In this document: in pieces, positions 1 through 57,903 of the stretch
How the letters are laid out: each line of letters starts with the position of its first letter
Numbering within the stretch: position 1 is the stretch's first letter
DNA from: Psammoneis japonica
Taxonomy: Eukaryota
Length of the DNA stretch: 57,903 nt
Assembly: GCA_008632985.1 (NCBI GenBank)
Contig: QPGO01000242.1
Coordinates: forward strand, 62,001 to 119,903
Direction of reading: 5' to 3'
Notes under the pieces: generated by a model
What the model saw: only the letters and a program-made list of their open reading frames with translations
The model's database searches: none
Told to the model about the DNA's origin: nothing
Made by a program: the position numbers and the translations under genes

Positions 1-819
1 TGTCACCACGAGGAGGTGAGCTGACTCATGCTGGGGTCATTGCACACAAGTGAGATGGTGACGGGGTTCCTGTTGGCACTGGGAACGACTTGAGGACATG
101 CGACGTGGAATTCCCTGACGGATCCACCGACTCCCATGCTGCTGACACAATTGCAGAGAACCCATTCACTCAGATCGACTCTGAAGGGAATGCCCGCCAG
201 ATCATGAAGGAAACAGTCGATCACTGACGTGATGCCCATTGCAGTGTGCATGCAGACAAAAGGTTGTTTTTGTCATGACCTTTGTGACATTTAAATTGCA
301 GCACGTCGCCGTGATGCATTGGCTCTTGTCAGCAGCTGCACACTGCACTCCTCCCCATGTGTCACGCGTCCATGCGGCTCTTTGCTGACGTGCACTGACA
401 CTGCACGGTTTTGGTGGAACAGTGTGGGTGCGTGCGAAGGAACACACAGAACTGCACAGAGTTTTGCACGTTCGACAGTGATCAACGTTGCTGCAGACAA
501 CTCCCACTCAGGGTTTCGAACCCCTGGCCTCCTGCCCAATGGTTGCGATGAACCACTCCGCCAAAAATTCATGATGCAGCATGCATGCAGACAAAAGGTT
601 GTTTTGTCACAACCTTTGTGACATTTAAATTGCAGCACGTTGCTGTGATGCATCAACTCTCATTGGCAGCTGCACATTGCACCGTGCTGCAACGGCCAAT
701 GACGGGTGCACAACGACCAAGACTGGCAGGCATGCTCATGGGAGGACGACTGAAGGCTGGGACCTGCAAGCAGAGTGGAAGGATGGGACTGCATCCTGGG
801 TTCCTCTCAAGGATTTGAA
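1..819 (+). pseudogene. Ty1/copia (CoDi-like) pol fragment between integrase and RT, interrupted by a TRIM at 240-681
   Basis: Reads PRGGE...CDVEFPDGS...IAENPFTQIDSEG...VDH, then GWDLQAEWKDGTASWVPLKDLK, typical of diatom copia pol; inverted copy at 36401-37219; truncated by satellite at ~820. Confidence 0.85.
240..681 (-). mobile_element. TRIM-like non-autonomous LTR element (LTRs 240-347 and 575-681)
   Basis: Two ~108-bp direct repeats with TGCA...TGCA ends; 4-bp TSD CCAT (236-239)/CCGT (682-685); purine tract GGGGAGGAG on minus strand abutting the LTR (348-356); interrupts copia reading frame. Confidence 0.85.
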
Positions 820-2885
820 GTCAAAGAAAACAAACACGTCTTTTCAAGGAAAACAAACGCATCATTTCAAGGAAAACAAACACGCGGTTTCAAGCAAAAC
901 AAACACATGGTTTCAAGGAAAACAAACATGTCTTTTCAAGGAAAACAAATGTGTTGTTTCAAGAAAAACAAATGTGTGTTTTCAAGGAAAACAAACATGT
1001 GGTTTCCAGGAAAGCAAACATGTCGTTTCATGGAAAAGAAGCATGTCCATTCAAAGAAAACAAACACGTCTTTTCAAGGAAAACAAACGTGTCTTTTCAA
1101 GGAAAACAAACGTGTTGTTTCAAGGAAAACAAACGTGTTGTTTCAAGGAAAACAAACATGTTTTTTCAAGGAAAACAAACATGTCTTTTCAAGGAAAACA
1201 AATGTGTTGTTTCAGGGAAAACAAACATGTGGTTTCAGAGAAAACAAACATGTGTTTTCAAGGAAAACAAACATGTCGTTTCAAGAAAAACAAACGTGTC
1301 GTTTCAAAGAAAACAAACATGTCTTTTCAAGGAAAACAAACGTGTCTTTTCAAGGAAAACAAACGTGTTGCTTCAGGGAAAACAAACATGTTGTTTGAAG
1401 ACAAACATGTTGTTTCAAAGAAAACAAACACATCTTTTCAAGGAAAACAAACGAGTCGTTTCAAGAAAAACAAACGTGTCGTTTCAAGGAAAACAAACAC
1501 ATCTTTTCAAAGAAAGCCAAGGTGTCATTTCATGAAAAACAAACATGTGGTTTCAAGGAAAACAAACATGTCTTTTCAAGGAAAACAAACATGTCTTTTC
1601 AAGGAAAACAAACATGTCGTTTCAAGGAAAACAAACATGTCTTTTCAGAGAAAACAAACGTGTCATTTCAAGAAAAACAAACATGTCGTTTCAAGGAAAA
1701 CAGACATGTCTTGAAAACAAACATGTCGTTTCAAGGAAAACAAACATGCGTTTTCAAGGAAAACAAACATGTCGTTTCAAGGAAAACAAACATGTTGTTT
1801 CAAGGAAAACAAACATGTGTTTTCAAGGAAAACAAACATGTGGTTTCAAAGAAAGCAAACATGTCGTTTCATGGAAAACAAGCATGTCTTTTCAAAGAAA
1901 ACAAACAAGTCTTTTCAAGGAAAACAAACGTGTCTTTTCAAGGAAAACAAACGTGTCATTTCAAGGAAAACAAGCGTGTCTTTTCAAGGAAAACAAACAT
2001 GTTTTTTCAAGGAAAACAAACATGTCTTTTCAAGGAAAACAAATTTTCAGAGAAAACCAAGGTGTCATTTCATGAAAAACAAACATGTGGTTTCAAGGAA
2101 AACAAACGTGTCATTTCAAGGAAAACAAACATGTTTTTTCAAGGAAAACAAACATGTCTTTTCAAGGAAAACAAATGTGTTGTTTCAGGGAAAACAAACA
2201 TGTGGTTTCAGAGAAAACAAACATGTCTTTTCAAGGAAATAAACATGTTGTTTCAAGAAAAACAAGCATGTCGTTTCAAAGAAAACAAACATGTCTTTTC
2301 AAGGAAAACAAACGTGTCTTTTCAAGGAAAACAAACATGTCGTTTCAGGGAAAAGTTCAAAGACAAACATGTTGTTTCAAAGAAAACAAACACATCTTTT
2401 CAAGGAAAACAAACGCGTCGTTTCAAGAAAAACAAACGTGTCGTTTAAAGGAAAACAAACACATCTTTTCAGAGAAAACCAAGGTGTCATTTCAAGAAAA
2501 ACAAACATGTGGTTTCAAGGAAAACAAACGTGTCTTTTCAAGGAAAACAAACATGTCTTTTCAAGGAAAACAAACATGTCTTTTCAAGGAAAACAAGCAC
2601 GTTGTTTCAAGGAAAACAAACATGTCTTTTCAAAGAAAACAAACGTGTCATTTCAACGAAAACAAGTGTGTCTTTTCAAGGAAAACAAGTGTGTCTTTTC
2701 AAGGAAAACAAACATGTCGTTTCAAGGAAAACAAACGTGTCGTTTCAAGAAAAACAAACATGTCGTTTCAAGGAAAGCAAACATCTTGTTTCAAAGAAAA
2801 CAAATCAAGGAAAACAAACATGTGGTTTCAAGGAAAACAAACATGTCTTTTCAAGGAAAACATGTTTGTTTTCCTTGAAAGGACA
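820..2885 (+). repeat. 23-bp satellite array
   Basis: Tandem TTTCAAGGAAAACAAACATGTC(T/G); 23-aa periodic ORFs equal 3 units; polarity flips at ~2861. Confidence 0.97.
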
Positions 2886-2889
2886 TGTT

Positions 2890-5215: not shown

Positions 5216-5599
5216 CATGCCCACCATCACATCGGCGCTGCAACACCAACAGAGCCACATTGATGTTGTTGCATTCGCCGCTGTGGCAGAACTGCCATGG
5301 TGGGTGATGCCTTCCATTGTCCAACTCATTTTTGGCTCCATTCATGTGCTTGCTGTCGATGCTGCTGCTTCTGCTGCTGCAATTTGACCACGTTCATGCC
5401 GTTGATGTTGTTGCCACTGTTTGAGACATCGCAGCTGTGAATGTGCTTTGAATTGCAGAAGGGGGGTGCGGAAGAGATGCAGGTGAGCTTGTTTTCAGCA
5501 TCAAAGCAAGTTGCGTTGCTGTCTCTTCCATTGCCATTTGTTGCTCAACACCCAAACCTCTGCATGCGCACTGGCTCATGTTCTTTTCTTGCGTCAGAG

Positions 5600-8500
5600 T
5601 TCATTGAGATTGCCGCTGAAGTCGCGCGAGAGAGTCAGAAACACCGTGAAGAAGAAAGAGATGCACGGATCACAGAACTTGAGCCAGAATGCACGAAACA
5701 GTCGAAGGTGAAAGCCCGAATGCTGCGAAACCAACGCTGCGCCGAAGAAACCAAACGAGTCTTTCAGAAAATCAACGCGTGCAAAAAGTCAGAAGACTCC
5801 AGCGTACGAACTGTTCAAATTCCAGCAGATCCTCGAGATGATCCAAAGACATGTGAGAATTGGATGACGACAGATGCTCCAGACGACGTCGAATCTGCAC
5901 TTCAGCACCGCAATCAACGCCATTTTGGGCAGGCACACGGAACTCCTCCCACGGTTCCTGTCTTTCAGTGGATCTCGGATGTGAAGGAGATGCCATCATG
6001 GCTGACCTGATCTCAGACAGTGAGTGCAAACGGAACAACTGAGCCGGGCTGCATCATTGCTGATCCAGCATCTCCGACGACGCACACCCCCAGCAGCTCC
6101 TGGTGCCCTTTCTCCTGAAGCCCTGCGGTCAAAGATTGCATTGTGGTCTGAATCTACCTCTGCATCATTGAAATCGGGGATTCATTTGGGGCATTGGAAA
6201 GCTGTGCATGCTCCTCATTCTCATGCATCTGATTGCAACGACGACGGGAATCCATCCAAGCGGAAAGAACTGCTGGATTCGGCTCAACAGACTCTTGTGG
6301 CAACGCGGCTCAACTTGATCAATTGCACTCTGAAGTGGGGCTGCTCGTACGAATGGTGGAAAGACATTGTGAATGTGATGATTTTCAAAGAACCAGGCAA
6401 CAACAAGATTCACAGATTGCAAGTGATTCATGTTTACGAGGCAGATTTCCAATTGATTGCAAGCGTCAAGTGGCAAGAGTTGGCTCAACATGTGGAGCAC
6501 CGTCGCATGTGCAACCCAGGGATCTGCGGATGCAGATCATTCCTCTCCGCTCAAACACCAGTGTTTCTTGAAAATCCAATGATGGAGATTTCACGCGCAT
6601 CCAGGAAGACTTCGCCAACCAGCAACGACGATTGCACTTCTTGCCACGACAGGAACATTCCAGCAATTGTCGGATTGTGTGCGAAGAGTGATGGCATGCA
6701 TGAAAGAGCAGTCAAAGTCAACATGGCGACTTTGCATCATGCGCGCCACTGGTTGCGCACTCTTCTGGGACTCGCCCAATGATGTTGTTCTCATTCCTCT
6801 GAGTGTCCTTTGTGTGGAACAGGACAAGGCAGTGGAAATTCTCCCTGGCACTGGAGCACTCTGTGCAGCAGACTCTTTGATGTTTTTGACGCAGAAGCTG
6901 TCGGATCACATTTCGAAACCCCGGACGGACAGTTTTGCATTTGAGTTTTCAACCGAGGACATGTCGATGACACTTCCAAGCAAGTGAACGACTTTAGAGC
7001 CAGCCCTCAGCCTTCTGCTTTCGAGTTGTCTCAATCTCTACAATCGGACTGCCAGTTGTGGTGTGATCCACTGGATGCGGCCGGGCACAAACCAGAATTG
7101 CCAAAATGTTCTTTCCACGCCATCAAGTGGGACTTCACGGAATGTGGCGAACCATGCATCCGCCCTCACCACGATGACATCGAAGTGGAAATCTTTTCTG
7201 CAGATCGTTCTGCTTCCAGGTGCAGCATGCAACTGTCTGCATGTGCGCCTCACAAAACCTTGGGACACTGCATGGCTCCGACAGGCACACAGAAGACTCA
7301 ACTGAAGAAGTTGCTCCACAAGAGCGATGCAGTCTCCCCATTTCTCCAATCATGTCCTTTGGACAGAAGAGAAACATGGCGGTGCCATTGTGCTTGTCAT
7401 TTATCTTTGATGACATGCGCGCTGGCAAATTCAAACTTCCTCCCCAAAGAACTCCAACAGGTCCAACAGAAGGCCATGTGGACGATTTTTGCCAAATGCG
7501 GACACAACAGGAACACCAAACAAGCAATCTTGTGTGGACCGCAATCCCTCGGAGGAGGCGGGTTTCGATCACTGGACGTCAAGCAAGGAGTGGCCCAACT
7601 GCAACAATCGTTGAAGCACTCGAGAGGGGTCAAACACTTGCAGCTCGGGGAGGACCAACCGCACAAGCTTCTTCACATCGCCGCAGCGTGGATCCAACTG
7701 AACTTGGGAACTGGCGAGAGTTTCTTGTGGGACGTCGACACCGCATTGCCTCATGTGGAATCTAGATGGTTTGCATCTGTTGGGCTGTTTTTACAGCAGA
7801 TCAAAGGCCGGGTGTTTCTGTGCCACAACGGGGTCCTTCCACTTCAACGAGACAACGACCAGTGCTTGATGGATGTTGCTTTGCATTCCCAGTCCTTTGC
7901 CGCACGAGAGATCCAGTGGCCAAACTGTTGCCATCTGCACCTGAAAGTCTTGTCTGTTTCAGATGTTGCTCTGTCAGATGGAATGACGCTGGATGGGTCA
8001 AAAGCACAAGGGGAACCGTCATTGCAGAGCAGTGTTGGTGCACTCAACAACATCGAGCAGTGCAAGCCATGCCAGCGAGCATGGAAAGTCTGGAAGAAAT
8101 TTTGTTCAGCCCTGTGCCATCCGAAGTCACTGCGCTTGAAGGAACCCCCAGGAGATTGGCTTCTGCCACCATCCCAGATGAGAGTGCAGTCAACTGCGTG
8201 CTTTTCTCCATCCGAGGAACACTTGCATGTGCGCTCTCCAACCGGTTGTGACACATTTCAAGCAAACAGGACCATTGCTGATTCTGTCAGAGAGATGGAG
8301 ACTGCACCACATCCTTCCAATTCTTCTTGTCCAGTTGAGGTGTCTGCCATCAAGGACGGACGATGGCATTTTGAGATCCCGCGCACTTCATCAACCGCTC
8401 TCCACTCTCCGACCACTCCAGATTCCTTTCTGTCGCATCTTCAGGGACTCGACAAGTGGGAATCTGTGCCATTTGAAGACTTGGTCTTTCATGTTTCTCC

Positions 8501-10096
8501 ACGAACAGTGGCCCGACACTTTCTTTCGTCTCATCTCACCGCAGGCAGTGATGGATCGGTCCAAGAAGGAGCCACCTTTGGGTGGACCATTGCCATGGAT
8601 GGTGCACCACCAGTGGATTGTGCAGGGCCAGTTTTGGGAAGACTCCGTCCTCTCACCATGCAGAAGCTTGCGGCATTCCATCCATTGCAAGATTCATCTG
8701 CCGGCTGTGCGAATGCTGCCGCGTTGCCGTTCCTTTGGATGCAGTGATTCATTGTGATGACAAAGCACTGGTTGACTGTTTGTCTGAATTGACTCCCATC
8801 CTGCCGGTGAGTGATCCCGAGAACGACGCATGCGAACAACACGACTTTCACATTTGCTGCCATGGGGCCAACACTGTCGCTCCGGATTGGGACATTTTGA
8901 ATGAGATCCTCCACACCCAGCAAGCTTTGACGCAACTGTCGGATGCAGCCGATCTCGCTCTGCCTCCAGTGCGATGGGTAAAAGGACATCAAGACAGGCA
9001 ATCTCCCGTCCACTCATTGCCGTTAAATGCCAGAGTTAACATCCGAGCGGACAAATTGGCAGGAGCTTGCCAAGGACATTGCCTGCACGACACGAATCAG
9101 GTCAAGCACCTGCCACATTGCCACTTGCATCTGGAGATTGACGGGGGTGCAATCACGACGAATTACAAGAAACAAATTCGGTGCGCTGCTGCTGCTCCTG
9201 AATTGATGCAACATGTTGTCGAACGGAACAAATGGGATCCTTCAGTGGTTGACCTTGTTGACTGGAATGCTCGCGCGGTTCTGGTGAAACGTCACTCACA
9301 ACAGCATGTTGACACAGTCAAACTGGTCCATGACTTGCTGCCGACTGACAAGATCGCAAATCAACACAACCCAGTTCGACCGCACCAATGCATCACATGT
9401 GAGCATCCGATGGAAGACAGGGACCACATGCTTCGGTGTCCAAACAATGAACAGTGGCGAAGGAAGTTCCTGCAGGGTCTTTGATGCTGCTGCGACAAGA
9501 TCGACGCTGTGCCTGCCATCCGAGACTTCCTCCTGGACATGCTTCAAGCCTGGTTTGATGACAAAATGACGTGCTTCAACAATGTGGACTGTTGATGCAA
9601 GGAACTTTGGTGAGCTCAATTGGGTGTTGGTTGGAGACAGGTTTTCAATGGCAGATGCTCGCACATGTGGAATCTTTTGCAATCCAGACACCTGCGTGAT
9701 TCTGGCATTCTACGACAATGTCAGGAAGAAAACAAACAGCCACCAGATTGGATGGTTCAGATCGGGTCTTTCATGTGGAGGTGCTGGTGGGAACTTTGGG
9801 AAGAGCACAACAAGTTGGTTCACGGGCACGATGTTGATTCTTGGAAATCATCTCAACAGAGGAAGGCGGAAGCCAAACTGACGGCGACATGCAACAAACG
9901 ACAAGAATGCTTGGCGAAGGACAGAGGTGCATTGCTGGATTCGGTCGAAGAACAACTGTCATTTTCAACAACGAGGATCCAAAACTGGATCTCTGTGGTC
10001 CGTCCAAGACTAAAATGCAGCCTGAAAGAAGCCAAACGACCAGCAAAAAGCGGCGCTTGCGCCATTTGCAGCTGTCTTCGTTGGGCGCCCTTCTAA
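5600..10096 (+). pseudogene. Non-LTR retrotransposon (LINE, Ambal-like) ORF2: RT, RNase H and C-terminal Cys/His motif; 5'-truncated and frameshifted
   Basis: Motifs RNQRHFGQAHGTP, SGIHLGHWKA, KEPGNNKIHRLQVIHVYEAD, TSCHDR, CGTGQGSGNSP (~6813), HVDD (6960-6971), HKTLGH, RNase H SDGS...HCDD...WVKGHQD...NIRADKLA, CITC...EDRDHMLRC; 5' boundary approximate. Confidence 0.9.
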
Positions 10097-10237: not shown

Positions 10238-10470
10238 TCTCAAGCAGTGTCATCTTGAGCAGCATTGCCTTGAGCGTCATCGTCTCAAGTGGTGAATTGC
10301 AGTGTCTCGAGTGCTCAACATCCAGTCTTGAGTGGCAGGCGCCATCTTGAGTGGGGCCCCTGGCAAATTTTGTCTTGATTGGCTCTGTGCTGTCTCGAGC
10401 GGCAAACATCCAATGTCCAATCTAACGTGGCATCATCTCGCGCAGCATCCACCTGGCCTCAAGTGGTGTC
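10238..10470. repeat. Degenerate minisatellite (TCTCGAGTGG/TCTTGAGTGG/TCTCAAGTGG core), left part
   Basis: Irregular recurrence of the core; continues at 12720-12965 beyond the hAT insertion. Confidence 0.65.
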
Positions 10471-14659: not shown

Positions 14660-15042
14660 GCGTTCCAGCCCTGGGCGGGACTTCGTGCGACATTGGGCCC
14701 GCAGAATTCTGCGTGCGAGCTCCGCAGCACGAGAATTTAATCAATGGATGTGTTTGTCTTCAACATCAAACAAACGGCCAAGTTTGTGGCACAATCATGC
14801 CTCTTGCCACTCAACGTTTTTGCAAATGCACCTGCCCTGCACAATTCTTAAGACATTGTAGAATCGCGCTGCAACAAAAAATGTCAAAAGTTGTTGGATG
14901 GATCGCTCAACAAGTGCACCATAAAATGACACAAAATGTCAAAAAAACACGCAGAAATCTACGTGCTCGACATGCGACGTGATTCAAAAAACTGTCGATG
15001 TCACAGTTCAGCAGTGCGAGGTCCCACCTGGACCTGGAACGC
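14660..15042. mobile_element. MITE-like element with imperfect ~29-bp TIRs, embedded in satellite
   Basis: Left GCGTTCCAGCCCTGGGCGGGACTTCGTGC vs reverse complement of right end GCGTTCCAGGTCCAGGTGGGACCTCGCAC; TSD unresolved; partial or related copies at 38010-38160, 47062-47250, 55948-56243. Confidence 0.6.
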
Positions 15043-15219
15043 GTCAAACATGTCGTTTAAAGGAAAACAAACATGTTGTTTCAAAGAAAACAAATGTGTC
15101 TTTTCAAGGAAAACAAACATGTCTTTTCAAGGAAGGAAAACAAACGCGTTGTTTCAAGGAAAACAAACATGTCTTTTTGACAAAAACAAACATGTCTTTT
15201 CAAGAAAAACAAACAACTT

Positions 15220-15540
15220 GGAGCACGCCAAGAAAGCCTTGATGACAGTTGGCCGTTTTGGCATTTAACTCAGGCGAGCCATCCAGTTCAGGCCTGTTTC
15301 CCAAGCTCAAGGGCGTCGACGCATTTGTCGGAAGACACCTGTCAATTTGCTTGAGCTCCAACTCAACATCAGCCAATGCCCATTTGACTCAAAGGTCAGA
15401 GGACATGGCCCAGCATGCCTTGCTTTCCAAGTCAGACAACTGGCACTTTCTGATCTGGGTGCCCAAGCGCTCCTCCGGCTCGCGAACACTTCTGTCCGTG
15501 AGCGTGCACCCAGTGCTCACTCAACCCATGATCTTGAAGT
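15220..15540 (-). pseudogene. Copia reverse transcriptase C-terminal fragment
   Basis: Inverted sister of 55452-55770 (EP..LGTQIRK...WAMSSD...RPELD...CHQG). Confidence 0.8.
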
Positions 15541-19270: not shown

Positions 19271-19514
19271 GGTGTTTGTTTTCCTTGAAAAGACACGTTT
19301 GTTTTCCTTGAAATGACGTGCTTGTTTTCCCTGAAACGACGTGTTTGTTTTCTTTGAAATGACATGTTTGTTTTCCTTGAAATGACATGTTTGTTTTCCT
19401 TGAAAACACGTGTTTGTTTTCCTTGAAACGACATGTTTGTTTTCCTTGAAAAGACATTTTTTTTCCCTTGAAACGACATGTTTGTTTTCCTTGAAAAGAC
19501 ATGTTTGTTTTCAC

Positions 19515-47669: not shown

Positions 47670-50600
47670 TGAACAAATGCTGATGTGCTGTCACAAGCAC
47701 AGGCAGTTTGTGTGCTGTTGGCGATTGGTTCACTGTTGCTTGATCAGCGGCCCCAATGGCGCAACATCTCACAATTCTAGAACCCGCTGATGCTGCTCAA
47801 CACTCTGTCTTGTCTTGCACCTAATTCTCAGCCATCATGGTGGCATTTGGTCACTTTGTCAGAGCCAGCGCGCTGTGATGTTCGTCGCCTGGAACGGGCA
47901 TTGCAAACGGTGTGACGGCATCGTTGTGATCAATTGATTTTTGTGGCAAGCGCCATGTTGGTCCCATGGTTGCTCGCGCAATTGCTGAGTCCTTTGTGTG
48001 TGTCAACATTCATGGACATGAGCAACATGCTCTTGGAGACCAGAGCTGTGATCCGTCAGACATGACGTCATCACACGAAATGTTTGATCATGTGGATGGA
48101 ACATGTCGGCTGAGACACGCAAACATTTGTGATGAAGACAACACAATGATTTGTGCACTGTCTGTCATTTGACCACACACATCTCATCAATCAAAGTGCA
48201 TCATCAAATTGTTTGGATGCCGCACATGCCAATGCATGTCTGTTGGACATTGTCGCTTGGGGGCAACACCGCCTGCTCATGGGTTCGCCAAGCAGAAACC
48301 GCCAAATCGGCACGAGAGCCATGCATTTTTCTCACTTTCCTCCACTCACACAAGTGGATGCTCACGCATCGAAACGCAAACAACTGCTGATGCGCCATGG
48401 CCGCTGCTGCAGCCTTTGCCGCCTGTCTTGCGCATTGTGGGCACAGTGCACAGACGTGCACCCACATGGCCCGCCAAGGCTTCACTGCTGTCGAGGACCT
48501 GGAGCAGGTCCCTTTGACTGAAATTGCCGACATGACGAAGGGCACCATGAAAAGCGTGGGTGCCGCTGCCAGCCCTCAAGTCCGCTTTCCACACCTGGCG
48601 AATCGAAAGCTCAAGGCACTGCGCGCATGGATTGACTGCCGCAGAGCCCGGAGCCAACAGCCGACCGCTGCTCTCTTCACTGGCGACGTTGTTGGAACAT
48701 GGGCGGCACGTCTGATGGAACTGGAGCAATTCAAGTCCGCCAACTCGGACAACGAATTGGCTGCCAAAACGGCCGTGGAGATCAAGAACCCACACAACTG
48801 GCCCACCTTCCAAGAGTTGCTGGAGACCGAACTGCGCCACCACCGCAGCACCGTCGCCGAAGTTCCCCTCATCTGCCCAGCTGGGGAACATGAGGAAGTC
48901 ACCGCCGAGATGTTGGCTGCCACCTGCGCTGCCATTGACGAGGACCTCATTGCTGCCACCCACCTTGCGGGCGCTCAGCGTGCACAGGACAGGCAATGAC
49001 TGCATGATCTCCTGAAGAAGTCAGTGATGGGGGGGCCCGGATGGGCTTTTGTCAAACCTTCCAATCGCAGCCGCAATGGTCGCACTGCTTTCTTTGCACT
49101 TGAGAGGCAGGCGGAAGGATCAGCTGCCGCCACCACCCAAAAGAGCCGTGCTCATGCACAGATTGCTGCCGCGAAGTGCACCGGACGGGGTCAATTTGCA
49201 TTTGACCAGCACATTCAGCGTCATCAAAAGGCTCACAACGACTTGTCTGAGCTTGATGAAAAAAACAGGTGGCCGAGACCAAGAAGGTCTCTGACTTTCT
49301 GAAGGGCATCTCCGACCGGAGTGCTCTTGACGGTCCCGAGTGAGAGCAAGTCCAAAAGCTCCGCGACGCCAAGAAGGCCAAAAAGAAATGCAAAGCTGCT
49401 GCTGTGTCCTTGGAAGCTGAGTCGGTCGATGCCAAAACTCTCGCTGTAAAGAAAGCGGCTGTTGCCAAGCCTGCTGCTCAACCTGCTGATGCGCCGAAAG
49501 ACTCCGGCGAGCCTGACAAACCTGCCGCCAATGCAGGCACCCAGTTTGGATGCAGCGCACATGAGAAACCTCAGAATGAGGAACGAACAGTTGCGCCAGC
49601 ACTGAAGGCACAGAGCCAAATGTTGCTGAACCTGCTGGCACTGTTTGTTTGTCCGGGTGATTCTCAAAGGATGTGCGTGTCTCTTTGTCATCTGCTGGAA
49701 ATTCAGATGACGAAGCCACCACTGATTTAGACTCGCACGCTGACACGTGTGCTGTTGGGTCCAATTTTGTGATGTGCTCTGACATCGACAGAACTGTCGT
49801 GGTGCACCCCCGCTCCGAAGAGCACGCGCCAATGGAAAACACTCCTGTTTGCACGGCTGCTGCCGTGTGGGTTGATCCAACTGATGGACAACCGTGCTTT
49901 CTGCCAGTCCACGAGGCCATGTTTTTTGGGGACAAGATGACCAACACCCTTCTGTGCCCCAACCAACTGCAAGCAAATGGGCTGATTGTCCACGACACCC
50001 CTTGCCAGTTTGATCCAACTGGTGCGCACTCCATTGCTTTCCCTGACTTGAAGATCAGGGTGCCACTGCAAACAAGAGGCATTGCTTCTGTCTTTGATTC
50101 ACACGAGCCAACAAATGAGGATCTGGAGAACCTCCCCCAGCTGGAACTCACATCACCCCCGAGATGGGAGCCTTCTGCTGATGCCATGGTGCAAAAGGAG
50201 GAAGCGCGTGCATGTGCCAGTGTGCGCCAAGGATCAGCAAAGTCGGGCGGATGGTCGACGACAATGAATGTGACCAGGTGTGTTGCTTCCATTCATTCAC
50301 ACCAAATGTCCTGTCATGATGAGAGTGTCATTTTGGACACTGATGACAACAATTCATTGCATCGCCGCATGGTTGCTCAGGTGAATGTCTCCCACAACGA
50401 CACCAAGGGAGACGGGCCACACAACCGGCATGACCTGGATGTCCACCTGGATTGTGCCGAGCAGAAACGGGTGCATGCACTGTCGACCTTGAGTCGTGCA
50501 TCAACTGTCACGCCCAAGACACTCTCTAAAAGGTGGAACATTGGCCTGACGGCAGCTGAGAACACCATCAGAGTGATTGCCCAGGCAGGGGTCCGCAATG

Positions 50601-51163
50601 TCTGCACACCATCCGAATGGAAAGTCCGGAAGAAAGCCCCTTGGCTCAAGTTCCCTGCTGTCAAGGGACGACTCCACTCCGACCAGATGTTTTCAAAGGT
50701 CAAATTGACACATGGCAAGATGGGAGGAAGCGCACTTGCCAACGGAAGAGAGTGTGACAGGTTCCATCCTTGGAAGAGGAAACAGGACCACCCAGATGCC
50801 GTCATGTCATTTGTGCATGACGTTGGCACACCGCAGGTCCTTGTGTCGGATGGCGTGCCGGAAATGGCGGAAGGCCAGAGCAAGGAGATCTGCAAGGAAT
50901 GCAGGATGCACCAGGAGGTGTCCACTCCATGCAGCCCCTGGCAGAACCTGGCCGAGGCATCCATTCGTGAGTTGAAGAAAAGAGTCCGTGTGACTCTGCA
51001 CTGGACTGGCGCTCACAGACGACTTTGGTCCCACAGCGCCAAATGGGCATGTGACATCCAACGCATGATTGCAGCCAGTGTGTCAGACATGGGAGGACAA
51101 GTCCCAGAAGAGGAGGTGACAGGTTCAACACCCGACATCTCTTCCCTCTCTCTCTTTGATTGG
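47670..51163 (+). mobile_element. Ty1/copia 5' half, copy C (open 497-aa protease-integrase frame 49673-51166)
   Basis: LTR start 47670; gag ATG 48397; DLDSHADTC; D,D,E region SDQ/SDG/AE; no Tyr in 497 aa. Confidence 0.92.
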
Positions 51164-52064
51164 TGAAAACAAACGTGTCTTTTCAAGGAAAACAAACATG
51201 TCGTTTCAAGGGGAAAAAATGTCTTTTCAAGGAAAACAAGCGTGTGTTTTCAAGGAAAACAAGCGTGTGTTTTCAAGGAAAACAAACATGTCATTTCAAG
51301 GAAAACAAACATGTCATTTCAAAGAAAACAAACACGTCGTTTCAGGGAAAACAAGCACATCATTTCAAGGAAAACAAACGTGTCTTTTCAAGGAAAACAA
51401 ACACCCCACCTCAAACCAAGCAAAAGCAGGCATGGAGCAGCGCCGCCAAAACTTGCAGACAGGCTCAAGTCCCACTCTGGCACTCAACTCTCAGCTTGTG
51501 CTCCGCACAAAACCCTCAGACAATGCTTGGCTCCAGCTGGCACCCAGAGGACTCAGTTGAAGAAACTCTGACACAAAAGCAACAGCTCTTTTCCTTTGAT
51601 CTTGTTGACATGATCATGTGGAACCATGGAGATGCTGCCGTGCATGCCATCTCTCCTTGATGACCTGTGTTCTCCCTGGCTGGACCTTTCTCACCAAACA
51701 GTTGCTCGCCACTGAACAGAGAGCAGCGCGGGTCACATTGTCAAATGTGGGCGCAGCTGAAACACAAATCAGCTCATCTTGTGTGGCCCGCAAGCTCTTG
51801 GTGGTGGCAGGTTTTGACCGCCAGACATCAAAAAAGGAGTTGCTCAATTGCGGGTGCTGCTCAAGCATTCCAGAGGTGTCACACATTTTCGTCTGGGAGA
51901 GGATCAACCCCAAAAATTGCTGCACATTGCAGTCTCATGGATCCAACTGAACTTGGGGACAGGCGCGAGCTTCTTGTGGGGCGCAGATGCTGTTCTCCTG
52001 CACATGGAATTGTGTTGGTTTGCTTCCGTCAGTGCACTCTTGCACAGAATTCAAGGCAAACTCA

Positions 52065-52930: not shown

Positions 52931-55451
52931 GTTCAGTTGGACAAATGCTGTGTGTTGATGCTGTGCACAACACATGCCTGAATGTGTGTGCGGAGAAGGG
53001 GCTCAACAGCTGGCTGAGTGGCAACTTCTTTGCCTCTTGGGTTGTTGAGAACCTCCTGCACTCGCCAGGACAGTGTGCAGTGTTCTGAGTGGTTGTGAGT
53101 CTTCGCGCTTCCTGAGGTTGCTGGCTTGAATCGGCCTCAAATCCAAGCCTCCTTTTCTTTCTCAGCCTGCCCCTTTCTAACCCCATCCGGGGTGGGCGGC
53201 TGGGCTTCGAGCCCGCTCCTCCCTTGGCCGGATGCGCCACATGGTGCTGGCCCATCCTGCCCAACATGGGGAGTGCAAGGTCAAATTCGTGAGTCCTCCG
53301 TGCGGATGCGCCACATGGTGACAACCCATCCTGCAACGAGAGGGAGAGTTGGACAAATGCTGTGTGACGATGCTGTGCACAACACACGCCCAAATGTGTG
53401 CGCGGAGAAGGGACTCAACAGCCAGCCGAGTGGCAACTTCTTTGCCTCTTGGGTTGTTGAGAACCTCCTGCACTCGCCAGGACAGTGTGCAGCATTCTGA
53501 GTGGTTGTGAGTCTTTGCGCTTCCTGAGGTCGCTGGCTCAAACTGGCCTCAAATCCAAGCCTCCTTTTCTTTCTCGGCCTGCCCCTTTCCAACCCCATCC
53601 GGGGTGGGCGGCTGGGCTTCGAACCCACTCCTCCCTTGGCCGGATGCGCCACATGGCGCCAACCCATCCTGCCTGACAGAGGGAGTGCATGGTCAAATTC
53701 GCAAGTCCACTGTGCACATGTGCCACATGGCGACAACCCATCCTGCAATGAGAGGGAGAGTTGGACAAATGCTGTGTGATGATGCTGTGCACAACACACG
53801 CATCAGAGTGCACGAAATGTTAAAAATGTGTGGATTTGCATGATGACAATTTGTCAAAATGTTGCAAAAAATTGTTGTCGCACAATGACAGGCCAACCTC
53901 TGGTTGCAAGTTTGCTGTGCCAATGTCACAACAACATGTGCGCCATTTTTCGCTGTGTCCACATCGCCATTTCTGCCTCCACCTTGTCGCCATGTGCCAA
54001 TCTGTGATTGCATTGCCGCACAATCCTTGGTTTGTCAATTTTTGCAAACAGGGGTGTGATCACAGAACTGCTTGCATGCCTGCTTGTTCCTTCATTTGCT
54101 GCCGGTGACAGTGTCTGGGCTGGGCGGATCCCATGTCGGCACAATCGGGATGTCTTTCTTTTCATTCTTGTCATGGCTTGACTTTTTCCTGCCTTGCTTT
54201 TTCCTCTTGACTGCCGCCTTGAGTTTCTTTTCTTTTTCCTTTCCCTCTTCCTTGGTGACAACGCCTGCACAGACAAAGCATCACCGTCATCTTCTTGTGA
54301 GATGCGCGCAACTCTCGAGTCACACACATTGGTCACCCAACTTGCGGGCCATTGCCTCCGCCCCAACAGCCGAACACACCGTGTTTCTGAGATTGTCAAC
54401 TTGCCTTTTTGCCACCTTTTTTGCCCATTCCTTCCAAGTTCCTGACCAATTTGAAGTGTCCATGTTGCCACCAGCAATCTGTTTCGTGACAAACATTGAG
54501 ATGCTCCCATTGCTTGCCAATTCTGACGGGCTGAGAAACTTCACCTGTGGAAAGAGATCATTTCCAGCCACCTTCTCCTCTTCTGGTTTCAGCGCACCAT
54601 GCGCTGCCTGCGTGCCCGTTCTCTTCAACACTGCCTGAAGTCTCGGGCTGCAGTGCATCCTTGTTCCAAAGAGTGCGCGCCAATGAGGAATGTCCCCATT
54701 TTTGCGTGGCTGCTGCCATGTGGGTTGATCCAGCCAATGGACAGCCACGCCCACTGCCAGCCCACGAGGCTGTGTTTTTTCAGGGAAAGAATGACTGACA
54801 CCTTGCTGTGCCCCAGCCAACTGTGAGCAAGTGAGCTGACTGTCCACAATGCCCCTCGCCAGTTTGATCCCAACAGCGCGCACTCTGTTGTTTTCCTTGA
54901 CTTGAAAATCAGGGTGCATTTGCGTGCGCAAGGTGTTGCTTTGGTCTTTGACTCACACGAGCTGACTCAGGAGGACATGGAGAACCTCCCTCGGCTGGAA
55001 CTGACGCCATCCCTTGGATGGGAACCTTCTGCTGATGCCATGGCGCAAAAGGAGGAAGAGCGCACATGCGTCAGTGTGTGCCAAGGACCGTCAAAGTCCG
55101 GTGGACAGCTGACAATGATGAGTGCAACCAGGTGCATTGCTTCGGCTTGTTCGTGTCAGACATCCCATCACAATGAGAGCGTCATTGTGGGTGCAAATGA
55201 CGATGATTCTCTGCATCGCTGCTTGGCTGCTCAGGCCAGTGCATCTCACAATGACACTGGGGGAGACCGGCCACATGAACGGAACAATCTGGACGTCCAC
55301 CTGGATTGTGCCAAGTGGAAAGGGGTGCGTGCACTGTTGACCTTGAGTCGTGCATCGACTGTCACACCGGAGATGCTCTCCAAGAGGTGGAACATTGGTC
55401 TGACGGCTGCCAAGAACACCCTCAGAGTGACGCCCTGCAGGGGTCCGCAAC

Positions 55452-55770: not shown

Positions 55771-56244
55771 AAGTTGTTTGTTTTTCTTGAAAAGACATGT
55801 TTGTTTTTGTCAAAAAGACATGTTTGTTTTCCTTGAAACAACGCGTTTGTTTTCCTTCCTTGAAAAGACATGTTTGTTTTCCTTGAAAAGACACGTTTGT
55901 TTTCTTTGAAACAACATGTTTGTTCTCCTTTAAACCACATGTTTGACGCGTTCCAGGTCCAGGTGGGACCTTGCACTGCTGAACTGTGACATCGACAGTT
56001 TTTTGAATCACGTCGCATGTCGCGCACGTAGATTTCTACGTGATTTTTTTGACATTTTGTGTCATTTTACGGTGCACTTGTTGAGCGATCCATCCAACAA
56101 CTTTTGACATTTTTTGTCACAGCGCGATTCTACAATGTCTTAAGAATCGTGCAGGGCAGGTGCATTTGCAAAAACGTTGAGTGGCAAGAGGCATGATTGT
56201 GCCACAAACTTGGCCGTTTGTTTGATGTTGAAGACAAACACATT

Positions 56245-57593
56245 GAAAGACCTGATCTGAACCGTCCAATCTGGTGGCTGTTTGTTTTCTTCCTGACATT
56301 GTCGTAGAATGCCAGAATCGCGCAGGTGTCCGGATTGCAAAAGATTCCACATGTGCGAGCATCTGCCGTTGAAAACCTGTCTCCAACCAACATCCAATTG
56401 AGCTCACCAAAGTTCCTTGCATCAACAGTCCACATTGTTGAAGCACGTCATTTCGTCATCAAACCAGGCTTGAAGCATGTCCAGGAGGAAGTCTCGGAGA
56501 GCAGGCACAGCGTCGATCTTGTTGCAGCAGCATCAAAGACCCTGCAGGAACTTCCTTCTCCACTGTTCATTGTTTGGACACCAAAGCATGTGGTCCCTGT
56601 CTTCCATCGGATGCTCACATGTGATGCGCTGGTGCGGTCGAACTGGGTTGTGTTGATTTGCGATCTTGTCAGTCGGCAGCAAGTCATGGACCAGTTTGAC
56701 TGTGTCAACATGCTGTTGTGAGTGACGTTTCACCAGAACCGCGTGAGCATTCCAGTTGACAAGGTCAACCACTGAAGGATCCATTTGTTCCGTTCGACAA
56801 CATGTTGCATCAATTCAGGAGCAGCGGCAGCGCGCCGAATTTGTTTCTTGCAATTCGTTGTGATTGCACCCTCGTCGATCTCCAGATGTGAGAGGCAATG
56901 TGGCAGGTGCTTGACCTGATTTGTGTCGTGCAGGCAATGTCCTTGGCAAGCTCCTGCCAATTTGTCCGCTCGGATGTCAACTCTGGCATTTGACGGCAAT
57001 GAGTGGATGGGAGATTGCCTGTCTTGATGTCCTTTTGCCCATCGCACTGGAGGCAGAGCGAGATTGGCTGCACCCGACAGTTGCGTCAAAGCTTGCTGGG
57101 TGTGGAGGATCTCATTCAAAATGTCCCAATCTGCAGCAACAGTGTTGGCCCCATGGCAGCGAATGTGAAAGTCGTGTTGCTCGCATGCGTCGTTCTCGGG
57201 ATCACTCACCGGCAGGATGGGAGTCAATTCAGACAAACAGTCAACCAGTGCTTTGTCATCGCAATGAATCACTGCATCCAAAGGAATGGCAACGCGGCAG
57301 CATTTGCACAGCCAGCAGATGAATCTTGCAATGGATGGAATGCCGCAAGCTTCTGCGTGGTGAGAGGACGGAGTCTTCCCAAAAACTGGCCCTGCACAAT
57401 CCACTGGTGGCGCGCCATCCATGGCAATGGTCCACCCAAAGGTGGCTCCTTCTTGGACCGATCCATCACTGCCTGCGGCGAGATGAGACGAAACAAAGTG
57501 CAGAACCACTGTTCGTGGAGAAACATGAAAGACCAAGTCTTCAAAGGCACAGATTCCCACTTGTCGAGTCCCTGAAGATGCGACAGAAAGGAA
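56245..57593 (-). pseudogene. LINE RNase H and C-terminal fragment (copy of ~8423-9772)
   Basis: AGSDGSVQEGATFGW, WAKGHQD, CITCEHPMEDRDH. Confidence 0.9.
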
Positions 57594-57903
57594 TGTTTGT
57601 TTTCCTTGAAAGACACGTTTGTTTTCCTTGAAGAGACATGTTTGTTTTCTTTGAAATGACGTGTTTGTTTTTCTTGAAAATGCACGTTTGTTTTCCTTGA
57701 AAAGACATGATTGTTTTCCTTGAAACCACATGTTTGTTTTCCCTGAAATGACGCATTTGTTTTCCTTGAAAAGACACGTTGTTTCTTTAAAAAACATGTT
57801 TGTTTTCCTTGAAAAGACATGTTTGTTTTCTTGAAAACGTGTTTGTTTTCCCTTGAAACCACGTGTTTTTGTTTCTTTGAAACAACTTGAAAAACAAACG
57901 TGT
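57593..57903 (-). repeat. 23-bp satellite array (inverted), running to the window edge
   Basis: Tandem units. Confidence 0.95.

What the first reader, a model, noticed from the sequence alone, without database searches (positions are those of the whole stretch)
1..57903. Window-wide erasure of TpA: candidate 'reverse-RIP' repeat-hypermutation system (TA->TG/CA)
Seen: TpA is almost absent (by eye, 2 in 19501-22140 and about 40 in the first 15 kb, where base composition predicts many hundreds). The TE-derived ORFs of 587, 497, 372, 343 and 266 aa contain no Tyr. Known: these families have conserved Tyr, and here they read His/Cys/Arg: LINE RT YVDD->HVDD (6960-6971), YGTGQG->CGTGQG, SCYDR->SCHDR; copia PYSPWQN->PCSPWQN, LRYKLR->LRCKLR, YYQG->CHQG (55743-55748, adjacent TAT TAT resolved as TGT CAT). 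Leu->Pro/Ser, Ile->Thr/Met and Val->Ala fit the same rule. Inference: a process converts A:T to G:C at TpA on both strands in repeats, the mirror image of fungal RIP (CpA->TpA), and destroys TE catalytic sites. Candidate mechanisms are a TadA/ADAT-like DNA adenine deaminase, deamination of methylated adenine, or Pol eta-type WA->WG errors during repair of methylated chromatin. I do not know of a published description, but a literature search is needed.
Basis: partly seen in the sequence, partly recalled or inferred. Interest (0 to 1): 0.95.

Follow-up and report, generated by a model that had tools for sequence, protein, structure and literature searches.

The report
TpA-erased transposon and satellite block
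A 58-kb stretch of dead transposons and satellite DNA has had about 97% of its TA dinucleotides turned into TG or CA, the end state of a TA-specific DNA hypermutation that one 2026 preprint has so far described, in one alga.

Summary
The window has 104 TpA where about 4,000 are expected (o/e 0.03), and every 2-kb bin has 0-9. CpA and TpG are raised to o/e about 1.6; no other dinucleotide is depleted except CpG (0.66).

The window is a mosaic with no recognisable host gene:
- a 23-bp satellite (about 31% of the bases);
- a 5'-truncated LINE;
- three copies of a copia-like GAG-PR-IN remnant;
- a probable hAT remnant;
- further transposon fragments.

At 25 tyrosine columns conserved in intact relatives, the window has 12 Cys, 9 His, 3 others and 1 Tyr. 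Both directions occur within one ORF, and a DNA transposon and the satellite are affected too, so the change was made in DNA and not through RNA editing.

Duplicated copies share almost all TG/CA outcomes and differ mainly by CpG decay. The erasure therefore came first and duplication followed; a few sites (CA/TA/TG across three copies) show it continued.

The process is in print: a 2026 bioRxiv preprint measured TpA->TpG/CpA hypermutation in viral inserts of Bigelowiella natans. The "unpublished" claim is therefore outdated, and "repeat-induced" is not shown. New here are the near-complete erasure, the transposon and satellite targets, and the transposons' nearest named relatives being diatom proteins.

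The parts
1..57903 (.). Whole window: TpA-erased block of satellite arrays and dead transposons. No host gene was recognised and neither edge of the erased zone is in the window.
   Evidence: TA 104 against about 4,020 expected; 0-9 per 2-kb bin. Pfam scans of 151 stop-to-stop ORFs gave only low-complexity hits and one weak rve hit.
5483..10045 (+). 5'-truncated non-LTR (LINE) retrotransposon remnant: RT, RNase H and zf-RVT parts, with in-frame TGA stops. Holds HVDD, CGTGQG and SCHDR.
   Evidence: tblastn to P0059 residues 395-1918. 217 relatives, about 2000 aa, carrying PF03372/PF00078/PF00075/PF13966; best identity 44%. 17 conserved Tyr columns: 10 C, 4 H, 1 A, 1 V, 1 Y. TA 15 of 274 expected.
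10332..12378 (+). Probable hAT-type DNA transposon remnant (BED-like finger plus transposase-like ORFs P0055 and P0056). Lowest read depth in the stretch that was laid.
   Evidence: Atlas leads of 0.78-0.81 to DUF659/Dimer_Tnp_hAT/zf-BED clusters, lead level only. Motif likeness is recalled. No Pfam hit. Word depth about 180 against about 1000 for the LINE. TA 6 of 114 expected.
19451..22055 (-). Copia-like GAG / protease-like / integrase remnant, copy A (ORF P0003 = 19707-21017).
   Evidence: 41 homologues, best 46% identity, E 6e-113. Weak rve hit. tblastn map. 8 conserved Tyr columns: 5 H, 2 C, 1 F, 0 Y. TA 2 of 130 expected.
27254..30015 (+). Copia-like remnant, copy B. Carries in-frame stops and one frameshift relative to copy A.
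   Evidence: TA 5 of 138 expected.
48466..51184 (+). Copia-like remnant, copy C, 96.3% identical to copy A over the ORF.
   Evidence: A versus C: 16 synonymous and 29 non-synonymous codon differences, which is neutral.
31046..36400 (-). Largest array (about 235 units) of the 23-bp satellite. Further arrays lie at 821-2804, 4164-4386, 4759-5209, 13881-14658, 17683-18563, 19273-19512, 23513-24447, 24941-25794, 29948-30209, 38484-39051, 40640-41284, 41292-42263, 43651-44008, 44625-44864, 46456-47669, 51165-51403, 52100-52905 and 57586-57882, in both orientations.
   Evidence: TRF. 707 units found; the consensus has no TA. The satellite covers 18,227 bases, 31% of the window. Word depth up to about 183,000 in run X1.
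14748..21204 (.). Segment duplicated in inverted orientation at 56243-49475 (92.5-96.5% identity). Also 26974-30600 is like 48186-51794 (95%), and 18882-21204 is like 30600-28258 (95%).
   Evidence: Self-BLAST. Differences between copies: CG/CA 137, CG/TG 106, TA/TG 5, TA/CA 3, TG-versus-CA doubles 27, transversions 55.
15547..16336 (-). Fragment of a second, more distant copia-like family (31-40% identity to P0004). Its counterparts are at 54653-55444(+) and 46021-46449(+).
   Evidence: tblastn; blastn at 78% to copy A.
36978..38039 (-). Integrase C-terminal fragment of the copia-like family. Another lies at 44803-45282(-).
   Evidence: tblastn to P0016 and P0004, 47-55% identity.
56293..57545 (-). 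LINE fragment (RNase H / C-terminal part). Smaller LINE fragments lie at 4389-4715(+), 18607-19203(-), 30781-31035(-), 43321-43593(+), 44019-44273(+) and 51455-52069(+).
   Evidence: tblastn to P0059 and P0054.
52935..53801 (.). 412-bp tandem repeat, 2.1 copies. It is also TpA-erased.
   Evidence: TRF. TA 1 of 39 expected.

Best explanation
The window is a heterochromatin-like block of dead transposons and a 23-bp satellite. A process acting on the DNA itself has driven it almost to completion in one direction: TpA changes to TpG or to CpA, that is, an A:T->G:C transition at the A of TpA on either strand. This is the same kind of hypermutation that a mutation-accumulation experiment measured in integrated viral DNA of Bigelowiella natans.

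Inferred order of events:
1. Transposons with a normal TA content inserted.
2. Nearly all of their TpA was converted. This destroyed Tyr codons and the TAA/TAG stops, and with them the transposon proteins.
3. The already erased DNA was copied by segmental duplication, and the TA-free satellite expanded.
4. CpG decay, most simply read as deamination of 5-methylcytosine, became the main source of new differences, while the few remaining or newly made TpA kept being converted.

The most likely chemistry (inferred, not shown) is enzymatic deamination of adenine to hypoxanthine in TpA of silenced or foreign chromatin, by an ADAT2/TadA-like deaminase, read as G at the next replication. Targeting seems to follow chromatin state or foreignness and not copy number. 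TpA flanked as ATA/TAT appears to be the best substrate.
For: Shown:
- Only TA is erased, with CA and TG raised in compensation.
- All classes of sequence are hit alike: LINE, copia-like, probable hAT, satellite and unclassified spacers.
- Polarity from intact relatives. Of 25 conserved Tyr columns, 12 are Cys, 9 His, 3 other and 1 Tyr, while 69% of other conserved columns are kept. All 267 database proteins collected from then on have a median Tyr of 3.5%.
- Both outcomes occur within one ORF (sense TG 12, sense CA 9; binomial p 0.66), and DNA that is never reverse-transcribed is affected too. So this is not RNA editing and not a strand-wise library conversion.
- In the three-way alignment of paralogues, 2 sites read CA, TA and TG in the three copies and 1 site reads CA, CA, TA. 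Invariant sites number 216 CA, 207 TG and 2 TA, and 70 sites show CpG decay. Erasure therefore largely preceded duplication and continued afterwards.
- The copies evolve neutrally: 16 synonymous against 29 non-synonymous differences (random expectation 33% synonymous), and copy B has stops and a frameshift.
- Logan contigs of run X1 reproduce the sequence. Of 9274 contigs laid, 2260 are at 99% or more and 3028 at 95-99%. Of the 40 best-supported differences listed (309 more were not shown), none puts a TA where the window has CA or TG. 23 are window TG/CA against contig CG, and 2 are window TA against contig TG.
- Context: 4 surviving TA among 3317 xTAy/xCAy/xTGy sites with x=A or y=T, against 71 among 4741 other sites (Fisher p 2e-12).

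From the literature (Results, Discussion, Introduction and Methods part 1 of 10.64898/2026.01.13.699255 were read):
- 231 of 302 new mutations fell in two viral inserts.
- All of the A->G and T->C mutations there, 230 of the 231, fell on TpA.
- 324 CDS are TpA-depleted and enriched for RT, endonuclease-RT and DDE domains.
- The authors propose an ADAT2 homologue as the candidate enzyme.

My arithmetic on their numbers, 211/(6169 x 3132), gives about 1.1e-5 per TpA per generation, so 97% erasure would take about 3e5 generations. That is fast enough to precede CpG decay.
Against: - No host gene and no border of the erased zone lie in the window, and no genome is held. That the erasure is local, and not genome-wide, is inferred and not shown here.
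- Most TG/CA outcomes are shared by the copies, so for most sites the conversion cannot be placed at this locus.
- No mutation rate was measured for this organism.
- Only one sample's runs hold the sequence. Run X1 may be the source of the assembly, so it is not independent support.
- The TG-versus-CA differences between copies (27) can also arise from one CpG decaying in two directions.
- The ATA/TAT rule could reflect how new TpA arise and not how they are removed.
- Nothing in the sequence tells adenine deamination from thymine oxidation.
- The organism is not known. If it is B. natans, this is the published case.
Confidence: 0.8

Rival explanations
1. Same process and same targets, but the chemistry starts on thymine. 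A TET/JBP-type dioxygenase hydroxylates T in TpA of silenced repeats to 5hmU, and on to 5-formyluracil. Mispairing with G, or error-prone repair of the modified base, then gives T->C, which on the other strand reads as A->G.
For: The duplex signature (TA->CA or TG) is identical for T->C and A->G, so fit equally well. A passage in PMC11572971 says that in the dinoflagellate C. cohnii thymine is preferentially replaced by 5hmU in the dinucleotides TA and TC, and that 5hmU marks and silences transposable elements. That 5-formyluracil is mutagenic is recalled knowledge.
Against: TC is not depleted (o/e 1.05) and CC is not raised (0.85), so a TA-and-TC preference is not seen. Base-resolution mapping in Breviolum minutum found no sequence motif for 5hmU (figure-legend passage). 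No evidence on modified bases exists for this organism.
Confidence: 0.12
2. By-product of replication or repair, not a dedicated system. Error-prone synthesis (Pol eta-type WA->WG), or a repair bias specific to heterochromatin, slowly removes TpA.
For: The block looks like heterochromatin: satellite, dead transposons and strong CpG decay.
Against: Here AA is 1.19 and AG 0.95 outside the satellite, and only TA is lost. An o/e of 0.03 needs a loss rate far above the gain rate. In the published case the rate is 1000-fold above background and is switched on in only 11 of 15 lines, which fits a regulated activity better.
Confidence: 0.05
3. Native composition. These transposon families and the satellite are TA-free by adaptation, for example to escape a TA-directed nuclease or the hypermutation itself, and may still be active.
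For: The copies share the same TG/CA outcomes, and the satellite consensus is uniformly TA-free (CA 656, TG 7 and TA 18 at unit position 2-3).
Against: - Conserved tyrosines in RT motifs are replaced.
- The LINE carries in-frame TGA stops.
- Copy B has stops and a frameshift, and copies A and C differ neutrally.
- The LINE is 5'-truncated and the copia-like copies lack the RT part.
- Unrelated element classes and the spacers all share the state.
Confidence: 0.02
4. Artefact: a base-calling error at a modified base, or a conversion library, made TA read as TG or CA.
For: Such extreme dinucleotide loss is what chemical or enzymatic conversion libraries produce. Only one sample holds the sequence.
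Against: - A conversion acts strand-wise and would give all-TG or all-CA reads. Here His and Cys replacements are interleaved in the same ORF.
- The copies carry fixed, shared outcomes plus ordinary CpG decay, frameshifts and stops.
- k-mer contigs of a run with word depths of 150 to 183,000 reproduce the sequence.
- Contigs of a sister run (X2) of the same sample carry ordinary TA-rich sequence in their loose ends: 7 TA by eye in the 120 letters of its four listed loose ends, which have no TA at all in two of the four.
Confidence: 0.01

Closest known systems
TpA->TpG/CpA hypermutation of integrated viral DNA in Bigelowiella natans (Mettrop et al., bioRxiv 10.64898/2026.01.13.699255, 2026)
   Same: The dinucleotide rule is identical: only TpA is hit, giving TpG or CpA according to strand. 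CpA+TpG are enriched where TpA is lost. Non-host DNA is the target. In that genome the TpA-poor CDS are enriched for RT, endonuclease-RT and DDE domains, the same classes as here.
   Different: - Degree: TA o/e is 0.03 over 58 kb here. Their NCLDV insert has Rho 0.45 and their cluster cut-off is 0.43 or less.
- Targets: here a LINE, copia-like remnants, a probable hAT and a 23-bp satellite. No viral gene was recognised.
- Relatives: the only named relatives of the LINE are from the diatom Fragilaria crotonensis, and no protein above 48% identity exists among 1.84 billion representatives. The organism is unknown and may not be B. natans.
- No rate was measured here.
- The main text I read gives no flanking-base preference. 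Its supplements could not be opened.
Repeat-induced point mutation (RIP) of ascomycete fungi
   Same: Transposons are inactivated by dinucleotide-specific transitions that leave a strong dinucleotide skew and many amino-acid and stop changes. The preprint's authors draw the same comparison.
   Different: The direction is opposite: RIP is C:G->T:A, mostly at CpA, and creates TpA. RIP needs duplicated sequence and acts before meiosis (recalled). Here dependence on duplication is not shown, and a low-depth element is erased alike.
CpG decay through deamination of 5-methylcytosine in methylated repeats
   Same: It is also present in this window: CG o/e is 0.60-0.66. CG/TG and CG/CA sites make up 243 of the 443 difference sites between paralogues tallied (70 sites in the three-way alignment) and 28 of 40 listed differences from the run's contigs.
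   Different: It removes CpG, not TpA, and it raises AT content. It cannot explain the loss of TA. Methylation itself was not measured.
ADAR (A->I) and APOBEC editing of retroelement or viral nucleic acids
   Same: Enzymatic deamination as a defence. ADAR favours a U 5' of the edited A (as cited in the preprint).
   Different: Those act on RNA or on single-stranded cDNA, mark one strand, and reach the genome only through reverse transcription. Here both directions occur in one ORF, and a DNA transposon, the satellite and spacers are hit too.
5-hydroxymethyluracil marking of transposons in dinoflagellates (PMC11572971)
   Same: A DNA base modification placed on repeats that silences transposons, with a reported preference for T in TA and TC.
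   Different: It is an epigenetic mark and is not reported to be mutagenic. TC is untouched here. No evidence on the modification exists for this organism.

Membership tests
TpA-specific A:T->G:C hypermutation (B. natans type) | Loss confined to the TpA dinucleotide | tested here: met
   TA o/e is 0.03. Outside the satellite all dinucleotides other than TA, CA, TG and CG lie at 0.85-1.19.
TpA-specific A:T->G:C hypermutation (B. natans type) | Products are TpG and CpA (transitions on either strand) | tested here: met
   CA 1.59-1.63 and TG 1.62-1.66. 21 of 25 conserved Tyr columns read His or Cys. Paralogous sites read CA/TA/TG.
TpA-specific A:T->G:C hypermutation (B. natans type) | Confined to foreign or selfish DNA while host genes keep a normal TpA content | not testable with these tools
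   All recognisable coding remnants are transposons. No host gene or border lies in the window, and no genome is held.
TpA-specific A:T->G:C hypermutation (B. natans type) | Measured, ongoing, locally raised mutation rate | tested here: inconclusive
   Only indirect evidence: 3 sites with a TA still present in one of three paralogues, and 2 window TA read as TG in the run's contigs.
TpA-specific A:T->G:C hypermutation (B. natans type) | Host is Bigelowiella natans or a chlorarachniophyte | tested here: inconclusive
   The only named relatives of the LINE are from a diatom. The Atlas's nearest clusters for the copia-like ORF are mostly Bacillariophyta, on very few records. No near-identical protein is in public collections. 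The run's organism is coded.
Fungal RIP | C:G->T:A transitions (CpA->TpA), leaving an excess of TpA | tested here: not met
   The opposite is seen: TpA is almost absent and CpA/TpG are in excess.
Fungal RIP | Triggered by sequence duplication | tested here: inconclusive
   The low-depth element is erased like the high-copy ones. The copies were erased before duplication. The copy number at the time of erasure is unknown.
ADAR-type RNA editing fixed by retrotransposition | A->G on the transcript strand only, and in retroelements only | tested here: not met
   Sense-strand TG 12 against CA 9 at Tyr codons. The probable hAT, the satellite and the spacers are erased too.
Pol eta-type WA->WG mutagenesis | Both AA and TA lose A to G | tested here: not met
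AA o/e 1.19 and AG 0.95 outside the satellite.
non-LTR (LINE) retrotransposon | RT with the family's conserved blocks, joined to an APE endonuclease, RNase H and zf-RVT in full-length relatives | tested here: met
   217 relatives, best E 5e-105, carrying PF03372, PF00078, PF00075 and PF13966. The window's copy aligns to residues 395-1918 of P0059, so the endonuclease part is missing. Pfam itself does not score the mutated ORFs.
Ty1/copia-like LTR retrotransposon | GAG, aspartic protease, integrase, RT and RNase H between LTRs | tested here: inconclusive
   Only the GAG-like, protease-like and integrase parts map. The rve hit is below Pfam's cut-off, and is so in intact relatives too. LTRs and the RT part were not sought.

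The most novel reading that the evidence does not exclude
The window comes from an organism other than Bigelowiella natans; its transposons' named and Atlas relatives are diatom. On that reading the TpA-erasing DNA editor is not a chlorarachniophyte oddity aimed at giant-virus inserts. It would be a wider genome defence, perhaps SAR-wide, that runs to completion over transposon and satellite heterochromatin, acts faster than CpG decay, and prefers TpA in ATA/TAT. Tyr-poor LINE ORFs with the same His/Cys replacements in unrelated metagenome and Logan assemblies (P0227, P0299, P0251) would then be traces of it in further organisms.
Probability: 0.4. Interest if true: 0.85.

Novelty: new member of a known kind. 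Interest (0 to 1): 0.68.

Why it matters
RIP was long the only known system that destroys selfish DNA by directed point mutation in the germ line of a cell. A second system with the opposite chemistry (A:T->G:C at TpA) has just been reported from one alga, on viral inserts that are only half erased.

This window adds several things:
- It shows the end state: about 97% of TpA gone over at least 58 kb, every tyrosine codon and two of the three stop codons removed, and transposon proteins dead.
- It shows that ordinary retrotransposons, a probable DNA transposon and a satellite are targets.
- It gives a relative timing: erasure first, then duplication, then CpG decay.
- It gives a possible substrate preference (ATA/TAT) against which candidate enzymes can be tested.

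If the host is not B. natans, the system is more widespread than reported. A natural DNA adenine editor specific for double-stranded TpA would also be of technical interest.

There is a practical point for annotation. Such blocks defeat Pfam-based transposon annotation and produce long false ORFs.

Tried and rejected
- The whole genome was not available, so the contrast between repeats and genes could not be computed.
- Pfam scans of 151 stop-to-stop ORFs gave only low-complexity matches (LbR_Ice_bind and the like, from the satellite) and one weak rve hit. They were of no use for annotation. Homology searches with the ORFs worked instead.
- P0002 (600 aa) in the word-indexed search found 1 protein. 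The RT region read through with X found 217.
- The satellite core pattern in metagenome contigs gave 53 loci with one match each and none in tandem. Their TA o/e is 0.38-0.96. I read these as chance matches, so the satellite was not found in that collection.
- Earlier-findings look-ups returned nothing on this genome or on look-alikes. The phage items returned by words do not bear on this case.
- Cluster look-ups gave no organism names.
- No RNA holder was listed among the runs, so nothing can be said about expression.
- Runs X2 and X3 of the same sample hold next to none of the stretch's words.
- Read laying cannot give raw reads here, only contigs, so allele fractions and rare TA-bearing reads could not be examined.
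- Strand bias of TG against CA (for example CA 1.82 and TG 1.37 in copia-like copy A) was considered as a sign of processive one-strand action. I rejected it: the bias follows the sense strand of the element in all three copies, the Tyr codons there go the other way (5 His, 2 Cys), and it looks like native codon composition.
- Literature searches that found no other description of TpA erasure. One search failed on a term's syntax and was not repeated. PMC9258296 (passages) was irrelevant.
- The bioRxiv supplements of the key preprint are closed. Its tables of mutated sites and of TpA-poor clusters and CDS could bear on flanking preference and on whether elements like these occur in B. natans.

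Full report
**Observation.** The window (57,903 nt; 732 N in two runs, 24453-24940 and 38240-38483) has 104 TpA where base composition predicts about 4,020, an o/e of 0.03. CpA is at 1.59, TpG at 1.62 and CpG at 0.66. Each of the 29 bins of 2 kb holds 0-9 TpA. As a consequence, the + strand has TAA 67, TAG 19 and TGA 1333, and only 3 TAT and 15 TAC. Tyrosine codons and two of the three stop codons are nearly absent in all frames, and long open frames abound on both strands (66 of 200 aa or more). With the satellite masked, the remaining 38,959 nt (GC 52.9%) show TA 0.03, CA 1.63, TG 1.66 and CG 0.60, and every other dinucleotide lies between 0.85 and 1.19. The signature is clean: TpA is lost, CpA and TpG are gained, and ordinary CpG depletion sits on top of that.

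**What the window contains.**
- A 23-bp satellite forms at least 19 arrays in both orientations. I found 707 units, and the satellite covers 18,227 nt, 31% of the window.
- Between the arrays lie transposon remnants (tblastn map).
- One is a non-LTR retrotransposon at 5483-10045(+). It aligns to residues 395-1918 of intact proteins of about 2000 aa that carry the endonuclease (PF03372), RT, RNase H and zf-RVT domains. There are 217 relatives, the best at 44% identity and E 5e-105. The window's copy is therefore 5'-truncated, and it has in-frame TGA stops.
- Three copies of a copia-like GAG / protease-like / integrase remnant lie at 22055-19451(-), 27254-30015(+) and 48466-51184(+). This family has 41 relatives, the best at 46% identity and E 6e-113.
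- There are fragments of a second copia-like family and of the LINE.
- At 10332-12378 lies a probable hAT-type remnant. This rests on language-model leads of 0.78-0.81 to DUF659/Dimer_Tnp_hAT/zf-BED clusters, which is lead level only, and on motif likeness that I recall.
- Pfam hardly recognises any of this, and no host gene was recognised.
- Each of these parts, and the unclassified spacers, has a TpA o/e between 0.00 and 0.055.

**Polarity.** I aligned the window's ORFs with intact relatives.
- In the copia-like ORF, the 8 columns where relatives agree on Tyr read 5 His, 2 Cys, 1 Phe and 0 Tyr.
- In the LINE, 17 such columns read 10 Cys, 4 His, 1 Ala, 1 Val and 1 Tyr.
- Together 21 of 25 columns are His or Cys and 1 is kept, while 69% of the other conserved columns are kept.
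- The 267 database proteins collected from then on have a median Tyr of 3.5%; the window's ORFs have 0-0.8%.
- YGTGQG->CGTGQG, SCYDR->SCHDR and PYSPWQN->PCSPWQN are confirmed.
- For HVDD, the two closest relatives and one other have GYVDD, but 10 of 13 aligned relatives have GFVDD.
- Many other replacements fit TA->TG or CA across codon borders, such as Thr->Ala and Lys->Glu after a codon ending in T.
- CGG->TGG (Arg->Trp) changes show CpG decay as well.

**The change was made in DNA.** Sense-strand TG (Tyr->Cys, 12) and sense-strand CA (Tyr->His, 9) are interleaved in the same ORFs (binomial p 0.66). A probable DNA transposon, the satellite and the spacers are affected like the retroelements. 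This excludes editing of a transcript fixed by reverse transcription. It also excludes a strand-wise conversion artefact.

**Read evidence.**
- Contigs (Logan) of one public run, X1, reproduce the stretch 5401-18000. Of 9274 contigs laid, 2260 are at 99% identity or more and 3028 at 95-99%.
- Of the 40 best-supported differences listed (309 more were not shown), none puts TA where the window has CA or TG. 23 are window TG/CA against contig CG, 5 are the reverse, and 2 are window TA against contig TG.
- X1 may be the sample the assembly came from, so this argues against a base-calling artefact but is not independent biology.
- Word depth is about 180 over 10441-12960, about 1000 over the LINE, and up to about 183,000 over the satellite.

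**Timing.**
- Large parts of the window are duplicated at 92-96.5% identity. The copies differ mainly at CpG: CG/CA 137 and CG/TG 106. TA/TG differences number 5, TA/CA 3, TG-versus-CA double differences 27, and transversions 55.
- In a three-way alignment of 2,352 columns, 216 CA and 207 TG are invariant and 70 sites show CpG decay. Only a handful of sites bear on TpA: 2 sites read CA, TA and TG in the three copies, 1 reads CA, CA, TA, and 3 mix CA and TG. Those last 3 could also come from one CpG decaying both ways.
- Nearly all TpA had therefore been converted before the block was duplicated. The few left then resolved independently in each copy, which directly shows TA as the ancestral state and both outcomes.
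- After duplication the copies evolved neutrally. Copies A and C differ at 13, 15 and 20 sites in codon positions 1, 2 and 3, with 16 synonymous and 29 non-synonymous codon changes against a random expectation of 33% synonymous. Copy B has stops and a frameshift.
- The satellite has one fixed outcome at each position (for example CA 656, TA 18, TG 7 at unit position 2-3). It therefore expanded from a unit that was already TA-free.

**Context of the survivors.** Outside the satellite, 75 TpA survive. Among xTAy, xCAy and xTGy sites with x=A or y=T there are 4 survivors in 3317. Among the rest there are 71 in 4741, with TTAA the most frequent (18) (Fisher p 2e-12). Either ATA/TAT is the best substrate, or new TpA arise less often there. 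The outcome is not biased (the TG share is 0.43-0.54 in those contexts), so I cannot assign the effect to one strand. The main text of the preprint gives no flanking preference.

**Literature.** Eight full-text searches found one description of such a process: Mettrop et al., bioRxiv 10.64898/2026.01.13.699255, dated 2026-04-14. I read the abstract, Introduction, Results, Discussion and part 1 of the Methods; the supplements are closed.
- In a mutation-accumulation experiment with Bigelowiella natans, 231 of 302 new single-nucleotide mutations fell in an integrated NCLDV region (186 kb, single copy) and a virophage region (25 kb).
- The rates were about 6e-7 per site per generation.
- All of the A->G and T->C mutations there, 230 of the 231, fell on TpA.
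- Hypermutation was seen in 11 of 15 lines.
- The authors also found 324 CDS with almost no TpA, enriched for RT, endonuclease-RT and DDE domains, and 124 clusters of TpA-poor 1-kb windows.
- They propose an ADAT2 homologue as the candidate adenine deaminase.
- From their numbers I compute about 1.1e-5 per TpA per generation, so about 3e5 generations would reach the 3% left here (my arithmetic). That fits erasure preceding CpG decay.

**Which organism.** This is unknown.
- No genome is held, the run's organism is coded, and cluster look-ups gave no names.
- The only named relatives of the LINE among the best 120 hits are four proteins of the diatom Fragilaria crotonensis, at 36-40% identity.
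- The nearest Atlas clusters of the copia-like ORF are eukaryotic, with Bacillariophyta the commonest phylum, on 1-6 records.
- Among 1.84 billion representatives, nothing exceeds 48% identity to the RT.
- I take this as a weak indication (about 0.4-0.6) that the host is not B. natans. It is not proof.

**Same signature elsewhere.** Three relatives from ENA and Logan assemblies are Tyr-poor (P0227 0.56%, P0299 0.50%, P0251 1.5%). They carry His or Cys at conserved Tyr columns: 5 of 10, 4 of 8 and 5 of 9 columns respectively. These are possible erased LINEs in other data. Their DNA could not be fetched.

**Mechanism.**
- Shown: the dinucleotide rule, the polarity, action on DNA and on both strands, the targets, and the order relative to duplication and CpG decay.
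- Inferred: an enzyme that deaminates adenine in TpA of silenced or foreign chromatin (my preferred reading, following the preprint), with targeting by chromatin state or foreignness and not by copy number.
- Rival chemistry: oxidation of thymine at TpA. 5hmU prefers TA and TC in a dinoflagellate and marks transposons (passage in PMC11572971). Against this, TC is untouched here, and no motif for 5hmU was found in Breviolum (passage in PMC11071213).
- Pol eta-type WA->WG is disfavoured because AA is not depleted.
- Native TA-free composition is disfavoured by the dead, neutrally evolving copies.
- An artefact is disfavoured by the interleaved outcomes and by the run's contigs.

**Verdict.** It is outdated about novelty and unproven about repeat dependence. 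The window is best filed as a new, far more complete example of the recently reported TpA hypermutation, centred on transposons and satellite DNA, possibly in a second lineage.

Noticed in passing
window 821-2804, 31046-36400 and 17 further arrays: A 23-bp satellite makes up about 31% of the window, lies in both orientations, and reaches a word depth of about 183,000 in run X1 against about 180 for the lowest-depth part. It is a candidate centromeric or pericentromeric satellite. It was not found in tandem in the metagenome contig collection.
   Followed up: partly
satellite unit positions 15-18: The CATG core of the satellite unit varies as CGTG (position 16 is G in 180 of 707 units), CACG (position 17 is C in 98) and TGTG (56). 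This is either decay of an older CpG-bearing core or A:T->G:C changes at the ApT of CATG. The polarity could not be set.
   Followed up: no
window-wide; paralogue pairs listed: CpG sites are by far the most changeable sites after duplication: 243 of the differences between copies, 70 of 119 CpG sites in the three-way alignment, and 10 of 15 differences between the window and the run's contigs in the low-depth part 10441-12960. This suggests dense CpG methylation of the block; methylation was not measured.
   Followed up: partly
non-satellite part of the window: Surviving TpA avoid ATA/TAT (4 of 3317 sites against 71 of 4741, p 2e-12). TTAA is the commonest survivor.
   Followed up: partly
proteins P0227, P0299 (ENA assemblies) and P0251 (Logan assembly): These relatives of the LINE RT from other public assemblies are Tyr-poor and carry His or Cys at conserved Tyr columns. 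They may be TpA-erased LINEs in other organisms or samples.
   Followed up: partly
window 24453-24940 and 38240-38483: Two runs of N, 488 and 244 long (the second exactly half the first), both lie inside or beside satellite arrays. They are either assembly gaps or withheld stretches.
   Followed up: no
window 52935-53801: A 412-bp unit is repeated 2.1 times at 90% identity. It belongs to no family I recognised and is also TpA-erased.
   Followed up: no
run X2, loose ends beside 14999-15045 and 17526-17654: Contigs of a sister run of the same sample match short pieces of the repeat at about 90% identity and continue into ordinary TA-rich sequence. Their listed changes lean towards window C or G against contig T or A (8 of 10). 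They could be unerased relatives of the repeat, or unrelated DNA.
   Followed up: no
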